From the sequence record FJ373894: a stretch of 64,000 bases of DNA. One strand, written 5' to 3'. Origin of the DNA: Shigella phage Ag3. The notes under the pieces were generated by a model, which was given only the letters and a program-made list of their open reading frames with translations, ran no database searches and was not told the origin of the DNA. Shown here in pieces: positions 19,361 to 27,994 of this stretch; position 1 is the stretch's first letter, and each line of letters opens with the position of its first letter. The position numbers and the translations under genes are program-made.

Positions 19361-21004
19361 TCAGATTTGTGAGGCCAGTTCCGCCACCAGAGGAGCGGCG
19401 CGGACACGCGCATCTTCCAGAGTTTGAGTGTTGAAGAACTTGCCGTCACGATACACCAGCTGGTGCTGGTTGTCGGCGTCTTGTACCTGATCAAAGGTGA
19501 TACCGTCAACCAACACTAGTTTACCCTGAGAGTCTTTAATGACTTTAAGGAAACCACGCGCAGACTTTTTAGTCCCGCCTTTATCGGTCTTCGGCTCTTT
19601 GAAGATCTCACGGAATTCACCGTTCACCTTACCAGCCGTTGCTTTCACCGCCGTGCCAGTACTGTCACGGGTGTTCATCTGGTAGGTGTAGGAACCGATA
19701 CCGAACACCACGTTGATGGAAGCGAAGTTCCGGCCAGCCAGACGGCTAAAGATCTGGTCTTCACGCGCCAGGGTGATGGAGTCGCCGTAAATCAGACCGA
19801 TGTGTTCGTCCAACAGGAAGTGGCCAGTTTCGGTCTGGGTCCCGCCAAAGATCTCCCACAGGCGCTGGATAGAGCCGACTGCTTCAGAACGGCTGATGAT
19901 ATTACGGTCGTCTGCCATCAGAGAGTTGATCGTGCCTTCGCCTGTAATCAGGTGATAGGTGTTCGTCTCTTCGATGTGAATGACTTCGGTGCTGCTAGAC
20001 ACGCCGCTGATGTTCAGCGTGGCGCGGTCTTTGAACCCCTCAATTCGGTAGCCGCCGACGATATGAACTGGGTCGCCCGAGTCAGGGCGGATCACGACTT
20101 TACCGTTACGCGCCATGATAATATCTTTCAGGCGCGGCAGATAGTCGTCGATGACCTGCCAGTAATCCCACGCATCAGACACGATGCTGACGATGCCATC
20201 AGGATACACGTCCTGCACCAGGCGGCGGAAGGTTTCGAATTCGCCATCCTTCGTACCCATACACATCACGGCGTGTTCGGTAGCCGCAACAGAACCAGCA
20301 ACGACATAGTCTTCGTCGATGTCTGCGCCATAATACTCTTCAACGAACGTGCGCCCACCGTCGCAGATATCATCGACCACCACCAGATAACGGTCTTTGA
20401 TCAGTTCAGGGTTTGTAATGCTCACCCCAATGATCTCACCAGTCTTGGTGTCACGGTTCTTGTGTCCGTAGACAACAGGAACGCCATCCAATGACAGGCT
20501 GAGGGCTTCGGTCTTCTTCGCCGCGCCGCCGTCAGGAGCTACCAGCACAGCGTTGTTCCCACGGATGAACCAGCCCAGATACTGCCGCACGATGTAATCT
20601 TGCGGGACAACATGGACGTTGTTGATCAGAGAAGTCACAACATGGCTGTGAGGGTCTTTGATCGCCACACGGTCAAAGTTCATGCTATTGATGAACTCAG
20701 CCGCCCACTTCACGGACAGAGGCTCTCCGAAGTCGCAATGGCGGTCCTGGCGAGCATACGGGAAGTAAGGGATATACGCATGGAAGGTCGTCAGACGGTC
20801 CACGTTACCCAGGCCGCGCACGGCGTTAACCAGCAGTGCCAGCTCAACGAAGTCGGCTGATGATTTGATGTGGGCATCAATCACCACGTTCTGGACGTGG
20901 CCGACAGGGATACCAGCCTTTTGGATCTTGATATGTTCCTCACCACCTGGGAAGGTGAAGTGTTTGTAGAACACATCTTGGTCGTTCAATTTCAAACGAA
21001 ACAT
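19361..21004 (-). CDS. fusion protein: ribose-phosphate pyrophosphokinase (Prs)-like N-domain plus nicotinamide phosphoribosyltransferase (NAMPT)-like C-domain
   Basis: N-terminus has IPYFPYARQDR and VVVDDICDGGRT (Prs motifs); C-terminus has VSDAWDYW, VIRPDSGDP, GLIYGDS and a long stretch alignable to NAMPT; single uninterrupted ORF; GAGG RBS. Confidence 0.75.
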   Translation of the reverse strand: MFRLKLNDQDVFYKHFTFPGGEEHIKIQKAGIPVGHVQNVVIDAHIKSSADFVELALLVNAVRGLGNVDRLTTFHAYIPYFPYARQDRHCDFGEPLSVKWAAEFINSMNFDRVAIKDPHSHVVTSLINNVHVVPQDYIVRQYLGWFIRGNNAVLVAPDGGAAKKTEALSLSLDGVPVVYGHKNRDTKTGEIIGVSITNPELIKDRYLVVVDDICDGGRTFVEEYYGADIDEDYVVAGSVAATEHAVMCMGTKDGEFETFRRLVQDVYPDGIVSIVSDAWDYWQVIDDYLPRLKDIIMARNGKVVIRPDSGDPVHIVGGYRIEGFKDRATLNISGVSSSTEVIHIEETNTYHLITGEGTINSLMADDRNIISRSEAVGSIQRLWEIFGGTQTETGHFLLDEHIGLIYGDSITLAREDQIFSRLAGRNFASINVVFGIGSYTYQMNTRDSTGTAVKATAGKVNGEFREIFKEPKTDKGGTKKSARGFLKVIKDSQGKLVLVDGITFDQVQDADNQHQLVYRDGKFFNTQTLEDARVRAAPLVAELASQI

Positions 21005-21114: not shown

Positions 21115-21909
21115 TTATTTGTAGGAATCGACGATGGCCTTGAACAGCGCGTCCTTCTGGTCGGTTGGGATATAATCCGCCGGAGCCAGCAAGAGCCGCC
21201 TGATGTCTTCACAGCAGCCTTTCTGTTCTTCGGCGCTCATCTTATCCCAAGTGGTGGCATTAAAGTAGATCCCACCCTTGTAAGCCGCCGTGCAAGTCTT
21301 GGCCAGGCGAACAACGAGTTCAGAATACAGTTCATCAGGCCGCATGTGTGAACGCAAATATGTTTCCACTCTGGCCTGGACTTTGCTGTTGTGTTGGTCA
21401 TTGTGAAGTTCGTTGTCGGTATGAATAAATTCAGCACCGAATCCGCGACTTGGGTCTCGTGGATGATGGAACACGAAAGACTGGCTATGACCTTTCAAGA
21501 ATTCCATCCCAGCCATATGATTTATCTTCCCCCTTTCGGAGATGTACTGCAAGATATCTATCTTCGCATCGGCGGTGGCCGCCTCCAACATCTGCTTCTC
21601 CACAACGGCGCGGTAGGCTTCCAGTTCCCACAACTGGGAGAAGGTCTTGTCATAGGCCAGCTTCTTACCCAACTCTTCATCAAAGTTGGCAGGGTCGATG
21701 GAAGTAGAGCTATTCTTGCCCCAGACGACGAAGCCGTTGTCCATCTTGAAGTGGCAGGTGATGACACGATGACCGCCGACTTCACGGTCTTCATAGATGA
21801 CTTCGGCAATGTGGGACTTCAGGAGGTCTGGAGACAGCTTCAGACCTTCGCGAACAGATTTACCCTTCAGCTCAACACCTTTGGGTTCATTACGATTGAT
21901 GGTTGCCAT
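21115..21909 (-). CDS. hypothetical protein
   Basis: ORF 21115..21942; start at internal ATG 21909. Confidence 0.5.
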   Translation of the reverse strand: MATINRNEPKGVELKGKSVREGLKLSPDLLKSHIAEVIYEDREVGGHRVITCHFKMDNGFVVWGKNSSTSIDPANFDEELGKKLAYDKTFSQLWELEAYRAVVEKQMLEAATADAKIDILQYISERGKINHMAGMEFLKGHSQSFVFHHPRDPSRGFGAEFIHTDNELHNDQHNSKVQARVETYLRSHMRPDELYSELVVRLAKTCTAAYKGGIYFNATTWDKMSAEEQKGCCEDIRRLLLAPADYIPTDQKDALFKAIVDSYK

Positions 21910-22291
21910 TCTGTGTTTCCCGTAATTGGTTGCATACAACAACTACTTTACGGCACATGTCGATATCGAACAAGCCAATATGACACTCACGCTTCTTTAT
22001 CCCCAGCTTATGCGCCAGCCAACTGTAAGCGTCGCTTCTGCTCCTCTCTCCGCTTTTCCACAATGGGTCAAACGATCTATGGGCTTTTCGCTTCTCGGCA
22101 CGGAGAGCGGCATTCGCCATCCTTCCCAGAGGTTGTCTGCCGTCTCCATGGGCATGGCAACCGACACGAGCGTCACATGGAGTGCATACCCAGAACTTCA
22201 GATTGCGGAGGTCAGGGCGATGAGGGTGGAGGACGTCACCACCGACGAATTCGGCTGGGAGGCCACAGTAATCACAGATGACAGGTTTCAT
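21890..22291 (-). CDS. Cys-rich zinc-ribbon protein (DUF3268-like, tentative)
   Basis: CDYCG...CTPCDARVGCHAH pattern; start moved to 22291. Confidence 0.45.
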   Translation of the reverse strand: MKPVICDYCGLPAEFVGGDVLHPHRPDLRNLKFWVCTPCDARVGCHAHGDGRQPLGRMANAALRAEKRKAHRSFDPLWKSGERSRSDAYSWLAHKLGIKKRECHIGLFDIDMCRKVVVVCNQLRETQNGNHQS

Positions 22292-22305
22292 ATTCTTTGT
22301 CCAAA

Positions 22306-22326
22306 AGAAACCCCGCACATGGCGGG
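22306..22326 (-). terminator. terminator-like hairpin
   Basis: CCCCGC-acatg-GCGGGG followed by TTTCTTTTGG on minus strand. Confidence 0.5.
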
Positions 22327-22351
22327 GTTGCTCAGGCCGAGGCCAACAGGG

Positions 22352-22723
22352 TTATTTCAGCAACGCTTCCAGTTCTTCAACAGATTTGTTTTCCAGCTCC
22401 TGCTGTTTCTTACGCTGGATCAACTCCAGGATAACCTGGTTGTTCGCCTTACGCTCTGCCGCGTCTTTGCTGTCGTCACGCTCTTTCAGCTTAACGCCGA
22501 TGATGTGCTTGACAACGTCGAAGCGCAGCTGCAGTTCGGAGTCAACGGCGCTTTTGGTGCCGATGAAATCTTCTTCATCAGTTTCCGCTGCCTTCACCTG
22601 ACGGCTCAGGCTCTTCGCCATTTCGTTCAGGGCATTCAGGCTCAGATCCCAAACCTGCTCAACAGACAGCAGACCTTTGTTGGATTCGAAGCGCAGTTTC
22701 AGACGGGTTGCTTTATCGAACAT
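22352..22723 (-). CDS. hypothetical protein
   Basis: 123-codon ORF, terminator hairpin downstream. Confidence 0.5.
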   Translation of the reverse strand: MFDKATRLKLRFESNKGLLSVEQVWDLSLNALNEMAKSLSRQVKAAETDEEDFIGTKSAVDSELQLRFDVVKHIIGVKLKERDDSKDAAERKANNQVILELIQRKKQQELENKSVEELEALLK

Positions 22724-22767
22724 TTTACTATCCTCAATGATGAATGGGTTACAATTTCAAATTAGGT

Positions 22768-24786
22768 TTAGAACACAACTTTCACAGTGCGGTTGAACGA
22801 GCCGCTCACCTTCACGAACACGTGGTTGCGTTGGGTGGTAGAGAAGCCCAGACCGGACAGCTGCTCAGTGCTTGGCTGTACTTTAATCTTACCGCCTAAC
22901 ATTTCAAAAACCTTGCGGTGTTTATCAAGTTCCGGCTTCAGATATTCGTTGTAGAAGCCACGAGTGCCGACAGGGTTAGCACAACCTTCCAGGATGAAGA
23001 ACACGTGCTTGTTGCCCGTCTGCTCGCCGTCCCAATGGTTTGGTGAGTTCAGAACCAGCTGCACTTTCTGGAATACCGAGGTCTTGATGCCCCAGATTTC
23101 CTGCGAGCGTTCGTCGTCCTTCAGGGTAGAACGGATGTCTACCACTTGTCCAGCGCGGACATCAATCACAACAGCCAGAGTGCGATCTTTGTGCTTCAGG
23201 CCAGGATGCGAAAAACGCTTGGTCTGGCCTTTGTATTCAACTTCGATTTCGAAGCCCATATCACAGGTTTCACGCTGGCTGAAGTTAGTGACATAGAACT
23301 CGTACAGACCATCACGCAGCTTGCGTTCATCGCTGAAGAAGATGTTCTCCACCGGGCGGCGGTTGGGGTCAATACCGTCCATACCGTTCATGTCGATATC
23401 CAGGGTTGCGCCAGTTGCCGAGCGACGGTTGTGGTAATACACATGATTGTGTAAAGGATCGTTCAGGCTCAGATCCAGGTCATCGTTGTTATGCCACGCC
23501 AGGGACACACGGAGGAAACCGTCAACGTTGCCGCCTGCCGTCTTCACGCGCTCTTTGATGGAGTCGGCCACTTCACCGTTGTATGACCAGCTGAAGCCGT
23601 TGTTCCACTTGAACAGGTTAGGAGCGCCTGCGGTAGCCGGGGCGATCAGGGACATCAGGTTGCCAGTGTGAGAGTTTTCAACCAGCACTTCCAGGGAATG
23701 CGCCTTTGGCAACACGTTGGTCAGGAAGTCGTCGATGGTGATTTCTTCAACCTTGTCCAGGGACTTGGTCGGAGTCTTCACTTCAGACGCCAGCTGAGCA
23801 AACGGGTCCATCTTCTTCTGCGCTGCCAGGTCGGCAAACAAAACGTTGTTGATGGTCAGGTCGTCATATACAGCATAACGGCGGCCAAGGGATTCGGTCA
23901 GACCCAGCGCTTCGACTTCTTTCTGTGCGTTTTCAATCATGGACTTCGTGACCAGTGCAGTCGGGCGCTTATAGTTCTGAGGAGCGACTTTGGCTTCAAA
24001 GGACTTCACGGCGGTTTCCAGATCCCGACCTTCGTTGAGGTCTACCAACAGAGAGCCAATCACGGTATTACGGATGCCGTGAGGGGTGTGTCCGTTTGCA
24101 CGGTAGCCAGTACGCCAAGCCCACAGAGCGCGTTTCTCTTCTGCAGTTTGTTCGTACAGGGTCTTGCTCGTCACGAACGCCTGCACAGCAGCTTTGTGCT
24201 CTTCACCACGATACAGAGAATTCTGATCAATCAGTTCCAGAACGATTTCGGCCGATTCCAGAGACAGTTCACGCAGGCCGCGCTCAAACACTTCAATCGC
24301 CTGGCGGATTTCACCCTTCTTAGAAGCGATGACATCAGCCCGCAGAACATAGCTGGGCAGCAGGTCGGTGTGGAAGTGGTTGTAGGTGCGGACATTACCG
24401 TCTTTCATTTCGTGATTCGACTCAACACCGACTTTCTTGGTATCGTTGAAGTACACGTCGACGATTGCGTGTTGCTTGACATACGCAGACAGCGCCGCAG
24501 CGACAACGTCGTATTCGTTACCCAGCTGAATGTTATCCCAGATAGAGATCACGTTCAGGTCGGCGTCGATGGTCACCACACCGCCGATGTTACGGATGAA
24601 TTGTTTGCAGCAGGTGCAGTCGTGCTCGGTACGCTCACGGTAAAGCGGGTTGGTGCCAGCAGGGAAAGAAGACAGATACAGATCCCACAGAGCATCTTTA
24701 TCGATGTTGGTCATGAACAGACCAGTTGCTGACATGGCCAGCACGTTGTTATTAACAGCTACTGCGAAGGGCTTAAATTCTGACAT
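22768..24786 (-). CDS. hypothetical large protein (672 aa)
   Basis: Long ORF, start preceded by AGGAAGACTACATC variant of the conserved initiation motif; no motif recognised. Confidence 0.6.
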   Translation of the reverse strand: MSEFKPFAVAVNNNVLAMSATGLFMTNIDKDALWDLYLSSFPAGTNPLYRERTEHDCTCCKQFIRNIGGVVTIDADLNVISIWDNIQLGNEYDVVAAALSAYVKQHAIVDVYFNDTKKVGVESNHEMKDGNVRTYNHFHTDLLPSYVLRADVIASKKGEIRQAIEVFERGLRELSLESAEIVLELIDQNSLYRGEEHKAAVQAFVTSKTLYEQTAEEKRALWAWRTGYRANGHTPHGIRNTVIGSLLVDLNEGRDLETAVKSFEAKVAPQNYKRPTALVTKSMIENAQKEVEALGLTESLGRRYAVYDDLTINNVLFADLAAQKKMDPFAQLASEVKTPTKSLDKVEEITIDDFLTNVLPKAHSLEVLVENSHTGNLMSLIAPATAGAPNLFKWNNGFSWSYNGEVADSIKERVKTAGGNVDGFLRVSLAWHNNDDLDLSLNDPLHNHVYYHNRRSATGATLDIDMNGMDGIDPNRRPVENIFFSDERKLRDGLYEFYVTNFSQRETCDMGFEIEVEYKGQTKRFSHPGLKHKDRTLAVVIDVRAGQVVDIRSTLKDDERSQEIWGIKTSVFQKVQLVLNSPNHWDGEQTGNKHVFFILEGCANPVGTRGFYNEYLKPELDKHRKVFEMLGGKIKVQPSTEQLSGLGFSTTQRNHVFVKVSGSFNRTVKVVF

Positions 24787-24901
24787 GATGTAGTCTTCCT
24801 GTTTCAGTTCAAATGTGCGCCCCGTTTGCCAGGGCGCTTCGTTTAAGTGAGGTCAATAATACGTTGAAAAAAGTTATTGAAGAATGAAGTAAAGGGAATC
24901 T

Positions 24902-26122
24902 TTATTCAGGTTTCTTCAAACGGTCCAGCAAATTGACGGAACCACGTTTGAGCACGACTTCATCACAGCGCTTTTTGTATTCCCCACCGCCGTCATAGCT
25001 GACCTTGCCCCGAGGTTTTTCGCCGCGCCCAACCGCCTCAACACAGCGAGTGTACTTGCTCAGTTCACAGAACATGTTCTCCAGCTGCATAACGTTCATG
25101 CATTGGTCTACAGGCTCTTCGGCCGACCAGAATTGCTCGCGAACATACCCATATTGGGAGTACACTGCGTCCTGATTATCCCGTAGCCAGAATATGCATT
25201 CTTCGTGAGTCATGCCGTCCTTGTTCAGGAACAGCAGATCAATACCTGCGCGACAGCCCGGTCCGGCGATCGTGAAGTGGTTCTCACTGAACGGATAACC
25301 AGGCATGTACGTGAAGTCAACCCAGATCTGGTATGCCAGGAATGGACCAAGACCTTCGATGTCGTCGTACATGCGCTGGTATACTTCCAGAGGAGTACCA
25401 AGGCGCAGCAGGTCATGGAAGTAATTTGGATACTTGTTGACGAATGCCTTCAGGGAACGGATGACACGCATTGGCATGTACGGCTCCCAGCCTTCTATGG
25501 TGTAGAAGTCCGGCTCTGCTTCAGCAATAGCCTTGGCTTCCTTATAATCCATGTTCTGGGTCGAACCGTCCTTACAGATCAGGTTCACCATCATCCCACC
25601 GAAGCGCTGCTCTTTGTGGTTGACAACCAGCTCAGGGAAAGCCAGGCATTGCTTCAGACCGCCTGTGTTGAAGGCATTGGTGAATACTTTACCGCCGTCG
25701 GCCTCGAACTTCTGAAGTCGTTCGCGGGTTGCGTCAAGGTTGATCTTGGCGAATTCTTTGATCGTCATCGCGCCGCCGATAGCCTGGATCGGATCCCAGA
25801 GGTTGAACATGCGGAACAGAACGCAGTTGAACATCTTGTCTGCCATGCCCAGAGCATCGTTCTTGACGATGTTATTGATCAGGTTGAGAGACTGCCTGTC
25901 GTGCTCTCTCCGGACGTTACAGAACTTGACCTGCCGTAGTATAGGATTATTGGTCCAAGGGGCAGGAAGACGCTGGACGTCCTTCTTGACGTGGATCTTA
26001 TAGCGCTCGCTCATCCATTCGTAAGACAGGCGGGTATGGGTCGGACTGAGAACCGGTTTGGCCGACTTTATCTTTTCTTCACGGACACCGCAGTACGGGA
26101 CGTCCAGGGCTTTATCTTTCAT
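24902..26122 (-). CDS. hypothetical protein (406 aa)
   Basis: Long ORF with AGAGGA RBS; no motif recognised. Confidence 0.6.
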   Translation of the reverse strand: MKDKALDVPYCGVREEKIKSAKPVLSPTHTRLSYEWMSERYKIHVKKDVQRLPAPWTNNPILRQVKFCNVRREHDRQSLNLINNIVKNDALGMADKMFNCVLFRMFNLWDPIQAIGGAMTIKEFAKINLDATRERLQKFEADGGKVFTNAFNTGGLKQCLAFPELVVNHKEQRFGGMMVNLICKDGSTQNMDYKEAKAIAEAEPDFYTIEGWEPYMPMRVIRSLKAFVNKYPNYFHDLLRLGTPLEVYQRMYDDIEGLGPFLAYQIWVDFTYMPGYPFSENHFTIAGPGCRAGIDLLFLNKDGMTHEECIFWLRDNQDAVYSQYGYVREQFWSAEEPVDQCMNVMQLENMFCELSKYTRCVEAVGRGEKPRGKVSYDGGGEYKKRCDEVVLKRGSVNLLDRLKKPE

Positions 26123-26139
26123 GGTATCCTCTTAGAATA

Positions 26140-26171
26140 CGAAAAACAGAGGCCATTATAGCCTCTGTTGT
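26140..26171 (-). terminator. rho-independent terminator
   Basis: AACAGAGGC-cattata-GCCTCTGTT followed by TTTTTCGTATTC on minus strand. Confidence 0.6.
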
Positions 26172-26191
26172 TTAGTGAATAACTGTATATC

Positions 26192-27061
26192 TTAATCGAT
26201 ACGGGTCAGCTGGGTTATAGATGGTTGCACTGGGCTGGCCACATAGATACGGACGTTGGCTTTCCATTCACCCCAGATCAACGGCAGAGTTGGGAAGTTG
26301 TCTTCATTGAAAACAAACACGGGAATATAACTCTCGACTGTTTCACCAGAGAACGCCTGGAAGCCCATCTTGGCGTACCCCATAATCTCGTCAACAAAGT
26401 CGAACGGAGCGAAGGCAACACCAGCGTGTTCGTTGCATCCGAGTTGACCTGGGGTAGCCGTGCCCGTCAGAATGATTTCGGTGATCTGGCGCTTAGGCTC
26501 GGTGGTCAACATATCAGAGAAGTCCGGCTCTTTGAATGCTGCCATGTTCTTCAGGAACTTGCCAGCCGGGTACTCTTTGCCGTCGACGGTGATGGTGTCT
26601 ACCACTTTGATGCACGCCTGAGGGAATTCCCCTTCGATGCGTAGACTTTCGCGTGGGAAGCCTTTGTTGTAGTAGTAATCCAGTGCAGGCACAACTTCAC
26701 CTTCATTACGGATGAACTTGCTCATGTTGGAAGCATAAACGCGCTGTAGGCACTCATCGCCGTCGAAACCAGCAATGTGAGCCACGCCGTCATTGACGGT
26801 GGTGATATCACCCTGAGCGTCCATGATGTCCTTCAGGATTTCCTGAATGGTTCTGGTCTGGTAAGGTTCTTGTTTAGGTGTGAGCACCAGATCCAGTTTC
26901 ACATCGCAATCGTAGTACGCCGCCTCTAACAGTTCGCGGGTCTCTTCCAGCACCAGTTTCGCCTGATTGCGGATCTTACCAAAGTCGGGCGATGTGACGT
27001 CGCCCTTTGCATTACCGAAAGCCAGATTCAGATTCACGTTCTTAGAAAATGTAGTTGTCAT
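26192..27061 (-). CDS. hypothetical protein (289 aa)
   Basis: Long ORF with GGAG RBS, immediately downstream of regA. Confidence 0.55.
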   Translation of the reverse strand: MTTTFSKNVNLNLAFGNAKGDVTSPDFGKIRNQAKLVLEETRELLEAAYYDCDVKLDLVLTPKQEPYQTRTIQEILKDIMDAQGDITTVNDGVAHIAGFDGDECLQRVYASNMSKFIRNEGEVVPALDYYYNKGFPRESLRIEGEFPQACIKVVDTITVDGKEYPAGKFLKNMAAFKEPDFSDMLTTEPKRQITEIILTGTATPGQLGCNEHAGVAFAPFDFVDEIMGYAKMGFQAFSGETVESYIPVFVFNEDNFPTLPLIWGEWKANVRIYVASPVQPSITQLTRID

Positions 27062-27077
27062 GATTTAGCGACTCCAG

Positions 27078-27473
27078 TTATTCGCTTTTGGCCTTTGTAG
27101 GCCGGATAATGTATTTTGGGACCAGCTTCCATTCAGGAACCTGATCGTGTTTAACCACTTTAATGCGTGACATATCGGCGGCTTCGGTGACCTGCTCGGG
27201 ATGAATGACCTTCACCATGTTCCACTGCTCAAGCAGCTTGATGATGCGGTTCATCCTCAGGACATCTTCGCGGTTAAACCCGTTGTAATGTCCGTCCAGC
27301 ATAAACAGATGCTTGAAGTGGACGATATAATACTTGCCATACTTATGAAGAATATGACAAGTCTGATACAGAGTATTCGGCTCTTGGCGCGTGTTTACCC
27401 CAATTCGGCTCAGTGTTTCCTTGATCCCCAGGAATATTCCTGGCCGATCTTGGTTCAATTGAACTTCAACCAT
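27078..27473 (-). CDS. regA: translational repressor RegA
   Basis: ETLSRIG, LYQTCHILHKYGKYYIVHFKHLFMLDG, EWKLVPKYIIRP match T4 RegA; start moved to 27473. Confidence 0.85.
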   Translation of the reverse strand: MVEVQLNQDRPGIFLGIKETLSRIGVNTRQEPNTLYQTCHILHKYGKYYIVHFKHLFMLDGHYNGFNREDVLRMNRIIKLLEQWNMVKVIHPEQVTEAADMSRIKVVKHDQVPEWKLVPKYIIRPTKAKSE

Positions 27474-27571
27474 ACAATCAACGATGCTGGCCTCATCGTT
27501 GACGGCTGAAATGTTCAATATGTCTAGCGTATTGCGCGCCATGACTCATTCCCCTTTTACAATAGTTTGAA

Positions 27572-27994
27572 CTACTTAGCCTTGCGCGGTTTCGCTTTGG
27601 CGTTCAGCTCAGTACGTCCCATCTTCTCGCGTATCTCGGCCAGGACTTCCTTCGGCAAGAAACGGACGTACTCGGATGCCTTCTCCATGCTGATGTAGAA
27701 GTACTCGGAGAGTAACTTCACGTCAGGATCAATCGGACCTTTCTTAGACCATTTGTCGTAGCGTTTCCGCGCCGGAATGGTGTGAAAGGCATATGACCAT
27801 TGCATCCATGGAGTAACGGCATGCAGCTTGTTCATCTGCTGTGCAGTCACCAGAGTGTCTTTGCTCTGAGCTAAACCACGCCGCGTCATAAACGGGTCGA
27901 ATCCTTTCAACACTTCTGGGTCATCGGACTGCAGAAGGTTTTCTTTGCTGCTGTTCAGAGCAGCCAGGTAATCGAACAATCCAGGGGCGGCCAT
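27572..27994 (-). CDS. 62: clamp-loader small subunit gp62
   Basis: PARKRYDKWSK aligns to T4 gp62 PRGKRYGKWAK; position between gp44 and regA. Confidence 0.75.
   Translation of the reverse strand: MAAPGLFDYLAALNSSKENLLQSDDPEVLKGFDPFMTRRGLAQSKDTLVTAQQMNKLHAVTPWMQWSYAFHTIPARKRYDKWSKKGPIDPDVKLLSEYFYISMEKASEYVRFLPKEVLAEIREKMGRTELNAKAKPRKAK

What the first reader, a model, noticed from the sequence alone, without database searches (positions are those of the whole stretch)
22768..27061. Three large unassigned proteins next to regA: candidate DNA-modification or nucleotide-metabolism enzymes
ORFs of 672, 406 and 289 aa occupy the position where T4 has DNA polymerase gp43 downstream of regA. I recognise no motif with confidence. 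If the phage is Ackermannviridae-like, enzymes for thymidine hypermodification would be expected somewhere in the genome, and the 289-aa protein has an EExxEL-rich segment loosely reminiscent of MazG-type NTP pyrophosphatases. This is speculation.
Basis: inference. Interest (0 to 1): 0.5.

Follow-up and report, generated by a model that had tools for sequence, protein, structure and literature searches.

The report
Known Ackermannviridae genes beside regA
The three ORFs are real, conserved genes of a ViI-like (Agtrevirus) phage: a MazG-type nucleotide pyrophosphatase, the ortholog of phage ViI gp160 from the thymidine-hypermodification gene set, and a widespread phage protein of unknown function (DUF8224); the finding is largely ordinary, though the last two have no demonstrated activity.

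Summary
Three minus-strand ORFs of 672, 406 and 289 aa lie downstream of regA in a phage about 97% identical to Salmonella phages P46FS4 and SKML-39.

- **406 aa:** Pfam HMUDK_hel (formerly aGPT-Pplase1; E 8.5e-82). It is the syntenic, 84%-identical ortholog of ViI gp160, one of the five genes used to reconstitute 5-NeOmdU. It keeps an invariant E-x3-C-E motif that lines up with the metal-binding Glu and catalytic Cys of amino-acid:DNA transferases. Its own activity is unproven.

Nothing here is new at the sequence level.

The parts
26192..27061 (-). 289-aa MazG-like NTP pyrophosphohydrolase (ortholog of ViI Vi01_131c / orf00161)
26507..27061 (-). N-terminal all-alpha NTP-PPase domain (residues 1-185) with invariant E39 E40 E43 and D81 D85
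   Evidence: This domain is shared with N4-like, Serratia and Pseudomonas phage proteins. Homologs 45-48% identical to it pass the Pfam PRA-PH gathering score. Invariant residues are listed. pLDDT is about 90.
26195..26506 (-). C-terminal domain of about 100 aa (residues 186-289), unknown fold, ending in the conserved tail SITQLTRID
   Evidence: It aligns only among the ~288-298-aa Ackermannviridae-type proteins; the ~180-207-aa homologs of N4-like, Serratia and other phages lack it. Model confidence is low here (pLDDT 42-78). No PDB match.
24902..26122 (-). 406-aa HMUDK_hel / aGPT-Pplase clade 1 protein, ortholog of ViI gp160
   Evidence: Pfam PF18723 E 8.5e-82, 275 bits against a cutoff of 25. 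84% identical and syntenic with Vi01_130c = orf00160 = gp160 of Lee et al. 2018.
25064..25081 (-). Codons for E348-N-M-F-C352-E353, the candidate metal-binding Glu and nucleophilic Cys motif
   Evidence: E348, C352, E353, K356 and Y357 are invariant across five divergent HMUDK_hel proteins. The single hhalign local alignment against ADDT places E348/C352 on E282/C287 of ViI gp247. In ADDT these are the metal ligand and the catalytic Cys (PMC13458397, PMC11472151).
22768..24786 (-). 672-aa DUF8224 protein (PF26675; phrog_1735)
   Evidence: phrog_1735 matches full length. Near-identical homologs carry PF26675 = DUF8224. 4,933 50%-identity clusters have E<=0.001. AF2 model pLDDT 85.5.
23107..23574 (-). 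TerD/YfaP-like beta-sandwich insertion (about residues 405-560) with invariant D436 D438 D463 D465 E480 N481
22352..22723 (-). 123-aa partner of DUF8224 (phrog_2018)
   Evidence: A gene of about 123-140 aa directly follows DUF8224 in ViI, three cultured phages and all seven metagenomic contexts read. Nine of these aligned at 32-84% identity, or tblastn E 1e-12 to 4e-20. The rest are judged by position and size only.
27078..27542 (-). regA translational repressor (anchor of the finding)
   Evidence: Pfam Translat_reg E 1.9e-34; phrog_242.
26145..26169 (-). Terminator-like hairpin between the MazG-like gene and the gp160 ortholog
   Evidence: 11-bp stem followed by a T run. This is a consensus match only.
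22309..22329 (-). Terminator-like hairpin after the 123-aa partner gene
   Evidence: 8-bp stem with 6 GC pairs, followed by a T-rich tail. This is a consensus match only.

Best explanation
The interval holds three separate, conserved genes of an Agtrevirus-like Ackermannviridae phage, not one system.

(1) The 289-aa protein is an all-alpha (MazG/PRA-PH-type) nucleoside-triphosphate pyrophosphohydrolase with an extra lineage-specific C-terminal domain. By inference it cleaves the alpha-beta bond of a (d)NTP using Mg2+ held by the EExxE/DxxxD acidic cluster. It most likely trims the dNTP pool of the infected cell. Removing dTTP/dUTP so that 5-hmdUTP is used for replication is one candidate role.

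(2) The 406-aa protein is the ortholog of ViI gp160 (Pfam HMUDK_hel, formerly aGPT-Pplase1). It is a helical protein of the family described in the literature as DNA-glycosylase-like, and it travels with the 5-hmdU DNA kinase, next to it or fused to it. By inference it binds newly replicated phage DNA and acts on a flipped-out 5-hmdU or 5-phosphomethyl-dU. Because it keeps the Glu...Cys motif of the amino-acid:DNA transferases, I think it is more likely a Cys-dependent enzyme than a passive helper.

(3) The 672-aa protein is DUF8224. It is a multidomain protein with no detectable relative of known function outside its TerD-like beta-sandwich, which is an insertion. It forms a conserved two-gene cassette with the 123-aa protein downstream. 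The cassette occurs in many unrelated large phages, so it is not specific to thymidine hypermodification. Its activity is unknown. My best guess is an early or middle intracellular function acting with its small partner, possibly metal-dependent given the TerD-like insert.

Shown: the identities, orthology, folds, conserved motifs and gene linkage. Inferred: every biochemical activity.
For: Phage identity: 96.9% nt identity to P46FS4, and SKML-39 taxonomy.

289 aa:
- PHROG MazG-like E 1e-131 and phrog_671 E 6e-20.
- The Pseudomonas phage SM1 homolog hits Pfam PRA-PH at 2.2e-7 and MazG.
- Homologs 45-48% identical to it pass the PRA-PH gathering score.
- E39, E40, E43, D81 and D85 are invariant in 44 sequences.
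- An all-alpha dUTPase/dCTPase-fold enzyme of another T-hypermodifying phage is a dTTPase/dUTPase that spares 5hmdUTP (PMC13458397).

406 aa:
- Pfam HMUDK_hel, 275 bits.
- Vi01_130c = orf00160 = gp160 lies beside the MazG-like gene and regA, with the same synteny, at 84% identity.
- gp160 was one of the five lysates that rebuilt 5-NeOmdU (PMC5889632).
- It sits inside the hypermodification cluster of Vibrio phage D533, is fused to the kinase in Bacillus phage Goe26, and directly follows the kinase in Pseudomonas phage ZC01.
- The E348/C352/E353 motif is invariant and aligns with the ADDT E...C.

672 aa:
- Family size and collinearity.
- A partner gene in all contexts read.
- TerD-like fold, which is an insertion.
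- No HMUDK_hel or MazG gene next to it outside Ackermannviridae.
Against: - No direct Pfam, NCBIfam or PDB sequence hit for the 289-aa protein itself. Foldseek against PDB found nothing.
- A second all-alpha NTP-PPase (dUTPase_2 family, Vi01_058c) sits right beside the dUMP hydroxymethylase, dNMP kinase and 5-HMUDK genes in ViI and in Vibrio D533. It is at least as good a candidate for the dTTPase/dUTPase. N4-like phages with no known T modification also carry the 289-aa N-domain.
- gp160 is not among the purified proteins with assigned function in the 2021 pathway paper, whose Table 1 assigns ViI functions only to the kinases, gp247 and gp226 (PMC8989533). The M6 counterpart gp55 could be left out of the lysate reaction. 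So gp160 may be dispensable or merely accessory.
- The hhalign alignment to ADDT is weak (probability 4.7%, E 0.0085, shallow profiles), and BLASTP finds no similarity.
- For DUF8224 no function can be derived. The ViI record even splits the gene.
Confidence: 0.8

Rival explanations
1. All three genes, plus the 123-aa ORF, form one thymidine-hypermodification or nucleotide-metabolism module.
For: The order regA, MazG-like, gp160, DUF8224, partner is kept across Kuttervirus, Agtrevirus and other Ackermannviridae. No strong terminator was found between the gp160 ortholog and DUF8224. Short DUF8224 relatives lie between ribonucleotide reductase and DNA ligase in Bosa and phiH1.
Against: The DUF8224 + partner cassette occurs in Caulobacter, Bacillus, Alteromonas and metagenomic phages with no HMUDK_hel, ADDT or kinase gene within 5-8 kb. 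In Vibrio phage D533 the gp160 ortholog sits in the hypermodification cluster without DUF8224 next to it.
Confidence: 0.1
2. The 406-aa protein is a non-catalytic DNA-binding or base-presenting subunit of the 5-hmdU DNA kinase, as the current Pfam name '5-hmdU DNA kinase, helical domain' implies.
For: It is fused to the P-loop kinase in Goe26/SP10-type phages and lies directly after the kinase gene in ZC01. It is not among the proteins with assigned function in the 2021 in-vitro pathway work (PMC8989533).
Against: An invariant Cys-Glu pair preceded by an invariant Glu, at the position of the ADDT metal ligand and catalytic Cys, is not expected in a purely structural helper. In Ackermannviridae the gene lies tens of kb from both kinase genes.
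Confidence: 0.35
3. The 289-aa MazG-like enzyme is not tied to T replacement. It is instead a general house-cleaning or host-physiology enzyme, for example acting on other dNTPs, aberrant nucleotides or alarmones, as proposed for other phage MazG proteins (my own knowledge of that literature).
For: The same N-domain is found in N4-like Pectobacterium and Klebsiella phages and in other phages not known to modify T. A dUTPase_2-family enzyme sits in the hypermodification cluster proper.
Against: Its position next to gp160 is conserved in Ackermannviridae. A related NTP-PPase lies just past regA in Pseudomonas phage Cygsa01, whose replication genes its annotators compare to phiW-14 and Limestone.
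Confidence: 0.4
4. The 672-aa protein is a DNA-directed RNA polymerase, a virion structural protein or an ADP-ribosyltransferase. The first two are names given to it in some GenBank records; the third was a lead from a PARP_reg hit.
For: Record annotations read 'putative DNA-directed RNA polymerase' and 'structural protein'. One of 45 family members hit Pfam PARP_reg at 5.9e-5.
Confidence: 0.03

Closest known systems
Salmonella phage ViI gp160 (Vi01_130c; Pfam PF18723 HMUDK_hel, formerly aGPT-Pplase clade 1)
   Same: 84% identical over the full length. Same neighbours (MazG-like gene, regA, clamp loader). Same Pfam family.
   Different: Nothing substantive; it is an ortholog. The activity of gp160 itself has not been established in the papers I read (PMC5889632, PMC8989533, PMC13458397).
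Amino-acid:DNA transferases (Pfam PF18724 ADDT, formerly aGPT-Pplase2: ViI gp247, M6 gp51, PaMx11 gp46/PUGT)
   Same: Both families were predicted to share a DNA-glycosylase-like fold (PMC5889632). The 406-aa family has a Glu-x3-Cys motif near the C-terminal end of the domain that aligns with the metal-binding Glu and catalytic Cys of ADDT.
   Different: No BLASTP similarity. No ADDT Pfam hit. The Thr next to the metal-binding Glu is not conserved. No transferase activity has been shown.
All-alpha NTP pyrophosphohydrolases (MazG / PRA-PH superfamily; PDB 3nl9; the dTTPase/dUTPase gp18 of Acinetobacter phage SH-Ab 15599)
   Different: The protein itself is below the Pfam thresholds. It carries an extra C-terminal domain of about 100 aa. 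Its substrate is unknown.
TerD tellurite-resistance protein (PDB 2kxt) and YfaP/DUF2135 (COG4676)
   Different: It is only one inserted domain of a five-part protein, absent from short family members. There is no Pfam TerD hit.
T4 gene 45-44-62-regA-43 cluster
   Same: The clamp, clamp-loader and regA order is kept.
   Different: The DNA polymerase gene is not here. In ViI it lies beside the second kinase and ADDT genes.

Membership tests
Pfam PF18723 HMUDK_hel (aGPT-Pplase clade 1) - 406-aa protein | Match to the family model above the gathering score over most of the model | tested here: met
   E 8.5e-82, 275 bits against a cutoff of 25, model positions 4-278 of 281.
Pfam PF18723 HMUDK_hel (aGPT-Pplase clade 1) - 406-aa protein | Orthology and synteny with the experimentally used member, ViI gp160 | tested here: met
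   84% identity end to end. Same flanking genes. gp160 = orf00160 mapping.
Pfam PF18723 HMUDK_hel (aGPT-Pplase clade 1) - 406-aa protein | Same genome encodes the 5-hmdU DNA kinase, dUMP hydroxymethylase and ADDT | not testable with these tools
   None of these genes is inside the 64-kb window. The close relative SW16-7 is reported to have them (PMC10458263).
Pfam PF18723 HMUDK_hel (aGPT-Pplase clade 1) - 406-aa protein | Family-wide conserved residues, including the Glu...Cys-Glu motif | tested here: met
   E348, C352, E353, K356 and Y357 are invariant in five proteins down to 22% identity.
Pfam PF18724 ADDT (amino-acid:DNA transferase) - 406-aa protein | Sequence match to the ADDT model or to ViI gp247 | tested here: not met
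   No ADDT hit. BLASTP E >= 1.1. Only a weak local hhalign match at the motif.
All-alpha NTP pyrophosphohydrolase superfamily (MazG / PRA-PH) - 289-aa protein | Direct match to a Pfam model of the clan | tested here: not met
   0 families even at E <= 10.
All-alpha NTP pyrophosphohydrolase superfamily (MazG / PRA-PH) - 289-aa protein | Homology to proteins that are family members (transitive) | tested here: met
   P0481, P0482, P0487 and P0490 are 45-48% identical to it and score 26-31 bits on PRA-PH against a cutoff of 21.3. The SM1 homolog scores 31.6 bits.
All-alpha NTP pyrophosphohydrolase superfamily (MazG / PRA-PH) - 289-aa protein | Helical-bundle NTP-PPase fold | tested here: met
All-alpha NTP pyrophosphohydrolase superfamily (MazG / PRA-PH) - 289-aa protein | Conserved acidic metal-binding motifs (EExxE ... 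D/ExxD) | tested here: met
   E39, E40, E43, D81 and D85 are invariant in 44 sequences. Their correspondence to the canonical motifs is by inspection, not by superposition.
All-alpha NTP pyrophosphohydrolase superfamily (MazG / PRA-PH) - 289-aa protein | NTP to NMP + PPi activity and substrate preference | not testable with these tools
   Needs an enzyme assay.
Pfam PF26675 DUF8224 - 672-aa protein | Full-length collinear homology to family members | tested here: met
   150 representatives align over about residues 1-672 at 40-53% identity. The local Pfam copy lacks this model.
Pfam PF26675 DUF8224 - 672-aa protein | Small helical partner gene directly downstream (a feature I define here) | tested here: met
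   Window 22352-22723; homologs or same-sized genes follow DUF8224 in every context read.
TerD family (Pfam PF02342) - 672-aa protein, residues ~405-560 | TerD-type beta-sandwich fold | tested here: met
TerD family (Pfam PF02342) - 672-aa protein, residues ~405-560 | Sequence membership | tested here: not met
   No TerD hit for the protein or for any of 45 relatives at E <= 1.
TerD family (Pfam PF02342) - 672-aa protein, residues ~405-560 | Ca2+-binding acidic sites | tested here: inconclusive
   D436, D438, D463, D465, E480 and N481 are invariant. No residue-level superposition on the TerD sites was available.
T4-type DNA polymerase gp43 at the regA-proximal position | A family-B polymerase gene downstream of regA | tested here: not met
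   tblastn with ViI DNA polymerase finds nothing in the window. In ViI the polymerase is at 145-148 kb.

The most novel reading that the evidence does not exclude
The gp160-type HMUDK_hel protein may be the missing enzyme that turns the non-hypermodified share of 5-phosphomethyl-dU in phage DNA into ordinary thymine. It would use the conserved Glu/Cys pair to form the same C6-thiolate, exocyclic-methylene intermediate as the amino-acid:DNA transferases, but then pass it a hydride instead of an amino acid. [quoted passage not shown] It would also explain why the family accompanies the kinase in the phiW-14, SP10, ViI, M6 and PaMx11-type phages examined. A second possibility my evidence does not exclude is that the DUF8224 + partner cassette is a new, very widespread phage function.
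Probability: 0.15. Interest if true: 0.7.

Novelty: already known. Interest (0 to 1): 0.28.

Why it matters
As a finding it mostly confirms existing annotation. The genes are 96-100% identical at protein level to those of sequenced Agtrevirus phages, and two of them already have names.

Its residual value lies in two gaps:
- The gp160/HMUDK_hel family is present in every thymidine-hypermodifying phage group examined here, but none of the papers I read assigns it an activity.
- DUF8224 and its partner form one of the larger phage protein families (about 4,900 clusters at 50% identity) with no function at all.

Both are cheap to test in a tractable Salmonella, Shigella or E. coli phage.

Tried and rejected
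- Direct sequence searches of all three proteins against PDB chains gave nothing meaningful. The same was true of family profiles.
- NCBIfam and PADLOC gave no hits, so there is no link to known defence-system proteins.
- The 'DNA-directed RNA polymerase' label in some records has no support.
- A MoxR-AAA + DUF2201/VWA link to DUF8224 is real in Alteromonas phage AD45-P1 and one metagenomic contig. Both genes are absent from the window and from the 127 kb of ViI that I checked.
- Rfam and tRNA scans of 21800-27700 were empty.
- The AFDB Foldseek library was not available. The ViI sequence could not be added to the AF2 alignment.
- I could not establish from PMC13458397 whether phage 15599 has a clade-1 protein or what share of its T remains unmodified.

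Full report
**Observation.** The ORF listing returns the three ORFs exactly as described, all on the minus strand: 22768-24786 (672 aa), 24902-26122 (406 aa) and 26192-27061 (289 aa). The next gene upstream is regA at 27078-27542 (Pfam Translat_reg E 1.9e-34). It is preceded by homologs of the clamp-loader and sliding-clamp genes annotated in SKML-39 and ViI. The 5.3-kb region is 96.9% identical to Salmonella phage P46FS4 and 96.6% to SKML-39 (Ackermannviridae, Agtrevirus). It matches 279 phage records. The 289-aa protein is 100% identical to a protein of Shigella phage Ag3. ViI orthologs align end to end, so the start codons are sound. ViI DNA polymerase has no homolog in the window, so these genes do occupy the place that gene 43 holds in T4 (T4 order from my own knowledge). 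Rfam and tRNA scans of the interval are empty.

**The 406-aa protein.**
- It matches Pfam PF18723 HMUDK_hel ('5-hmdU DNA kinase, helical domain') at E 8.5e-82.
- Mapping the ViI record shows that the 'gp' numbers of Lee et al. are the orfNNNNN notes. gp67 = Vi01_061c, next to the thymidylate-synthase homolog. gp160 = Vi01_130c, which lies between the split DUF8224 gene and the MazG-like gene beside regA.
- The window protein is 84% identical to gp160. gp160 is the 'aG/PT-PPlase1' of Table 3 in PMC5889632 and one of five lysates that together rebuilt 5-NeOmdU.
- Scanning the ViI proteins shows that Pfam has renamed the two clades. gp160 is now HMUDK_hel and gp247 is ADDT, amino-acid:DNA transferase.
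- The genome paper on SW16-7, whose DNA is 95% identical to this region, already calls its ortholog aGPT-Pplase1.
- The 2021 pathway paper assigns ViI functions to the kinases, gp247 and gp226 only, and gp160 is mentioned once. The 2026 dapT paper does not mention clade 1 at all. The activity of this family is therefore still open.

**What I could add on the 406-aa family.**
- In Vibrio phage D533 the ortholog sits inside a cluster: HMUD2 kinase, ADDT, HMUDK_hel, thymidylate-synthase homolog, dNMP kinase, NTP-PPase.
- In Bacillus phage Goe26 it is fused C-terminally to the HMUDK_HMUD1 kinase.
- In Pseudomonas phage ZC01 it lies between the kinase and the dUMP hydroxymethyltransferase.
- Across these five proteins, down to 22% identity, 32 positions are invariant, including E348, C352, E353, K356 and Y357.
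- ADDT proteins have an invariant E-T-x(2-3)-C. In ADDT the Glu and Thr bind the metal and the Cys is the nucleophile (PMC13458397; Cys247 in PaMx11 gp46, PMC11472151).
- The only local alignment hhalign finds between the two families puts E348/C352 on E282/C287 of gp247. It is weak (probability 4.7%, E 0.0085), and BLASTP sees nothing.
- I conclude, as an inference, that the protein is more likely a Cys-dependent enzyme acting on 5-hmdU or 5-PmdU in DNA than a passive kinase accessory. The accessory reading remains a serious rival.

**The 289-aa protein.**
- Pfam, NCBIfam and PDB sequence searches are empty. PHROGs gives 'MazG-like pyrophosphatase' at E 1e-131.
- Residues 1-185 are shared with the ~180-207-aa proteins of N4-like, Serratia and Pseudomonas phages.
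- Relatives 45-48% identical to this domain, and the SM1 homolog, pass the Pfam PRA-PH gathering score.
- E39, E40, E43, D81 and D85 are invariant in 44 sequences.
- Residues 186-289 align only among the ~288-298-aa Ackermannviridae-type proteins, are poorly modelled, and end in a conserved SITQLTRID tail.
- The substrate is unknown. A dTTPase/dUTPase role is attractive because a related-fold enzyme does exactly this in phage 15599. However, ViI and D533 carry a second all-alpha NTP-PPase (dUTPase_2) right in the hypermodification cluster.

**The 672-aa protein.**
- It is phrog_1735, of unknown function. Its near-identical homologs carry PF26675 = DUF8224.
- The family is very large: 4,933 50%-identity clusters at E <= 0.001 and 1,232 at E <= 1e-30. 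The best 150 are mostly 650-700 aa and 40-53% identical.
- It occurs in 544 phage records from many groups: Ackermannviridae, Caulobacter phiCbK-like, Bacillus Bastille-like, Pseudomonas, Alteromonas, Vibrio, Cellulophaga and Microcystis phages.
- In every context I read, the next gene encodes a protein of about 123-140 aa. Where I tested it, that protein is homologous to window 22352-22723.
- Those contexts hold no kinase, ADDT or HMUDK_hel genes.
- Short family members (Bosa 547 aa, phiH1 538 aa) align to profile positions 4-399 and 560-664, so the TerD-like module is an insertion.
- Leads to PARP, RNA polymerase and MoxR/VWA systems did not hold for this phage.
- I cannot assign a function. 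The conserved pairing and the invariant Cys cluster and acidic sites suggest an enzyme or metal-dependent factor working with its small partner.

**Organisation.** Terminator-like hairpins follow the MazG-like gene and the 123-aa gene. The gp160 ortholog, DUF8224 and its partner may therefore share a transcript, but this rests on consensus matches only.

**Verdict.** The genes are known, conserved Ackermannviridae genes, so interest is low. The caveat is that the gp160 family and DUF8224 remain functionally unsolved.

Noticed in passing
window 19361-21004 (-): The 547-aa ORF is an in-frame chimera of ribose-phosphate pyrophosphokinase residues 1-222 and NAMPT residues 227-554. It was created by a deletion of about 865 bp relative to SKML-39, where the two genes are separate. 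The NAD-salvage pair is probably crippled or rewired in this phage.
   Followed up: partly
L003 5300-7319 (ViI Vi01_128c + Vi01_129c): The ViI reference record splits its DUF8224 gene into two ORFs near residue 481-490, inside the TerD-like domain. Other kutterviruses have it intact. This is either a sequencing frameshift or a real pseudogene.
   Followed up: partly
window 24787-24901 (-): The 115-nt spacer between the gp160 ortholog and DUF8224 folds into a GC-rich hairpin (GCGCCCUG...CGGGGCGC) about 30 nt before the start codon. MFE is -24.1 kcal/mol and z is -3.0 against shuffles. There is no T run after it.
   Followed up: partly
L002 8203-8865 (ViI Vi01_061c); rows H80, H95, H155: Annotation drift in public records. 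The 5-hmdU DNA kinase gp67 is labelled 'terminase small subunit' in the ViI RefSeq record. In Klebsiella phage FKP10 a 'terminase small subunit' label lies under the match to the gp160 ortholog. DUF8224 is labelled 'DNA-directed RNA polymerase' in several records.
   Followed up: partly
L013 2340-7397 (Alteromonas phage AD45-P1); L018 4966-12023: In these two contexts DUF8224 and its partner lie next to a MoxR-type AAA ATPase and a DUF2201 metallopeptidase/VWA protein. Both are absent from the window and from the ViI regions checked.
   Followed up: partly
L015 2148-10341 (Vibrio phage D533): This 157-kb Vibrio phage keeps the thymidine-hypermodification genes in one block: HMUD2 kinase, ADDT, HMUDK_hel, thymidylate-synthase homolog, dNMP kinase and NTP-PPase. 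In ViI the same genes are scattered.
   Followed up: partly
window 21115-22318 (-): Downstream of the DUF8224 cassette lie a DUF3268 zinc-finger protein (142 aa, E 1.3e-35) and a 275-aa protein with an N4 gp49 / Sf6 gp66 domain. The two ORFs overlap by about 50 nt.
   Followed up: no
L011 359-4483 (Pseudomonas phage Cygsa01): This phage keeps the order clamp, clamp loader, regA, then (after one opposite-strand gene) an NTP pyrophosphohydrolase related to the 289-aa N-domain. The regA-proximal NTP-PPase position therefore extends beyond Ackermannviridae.
   Followed up: no
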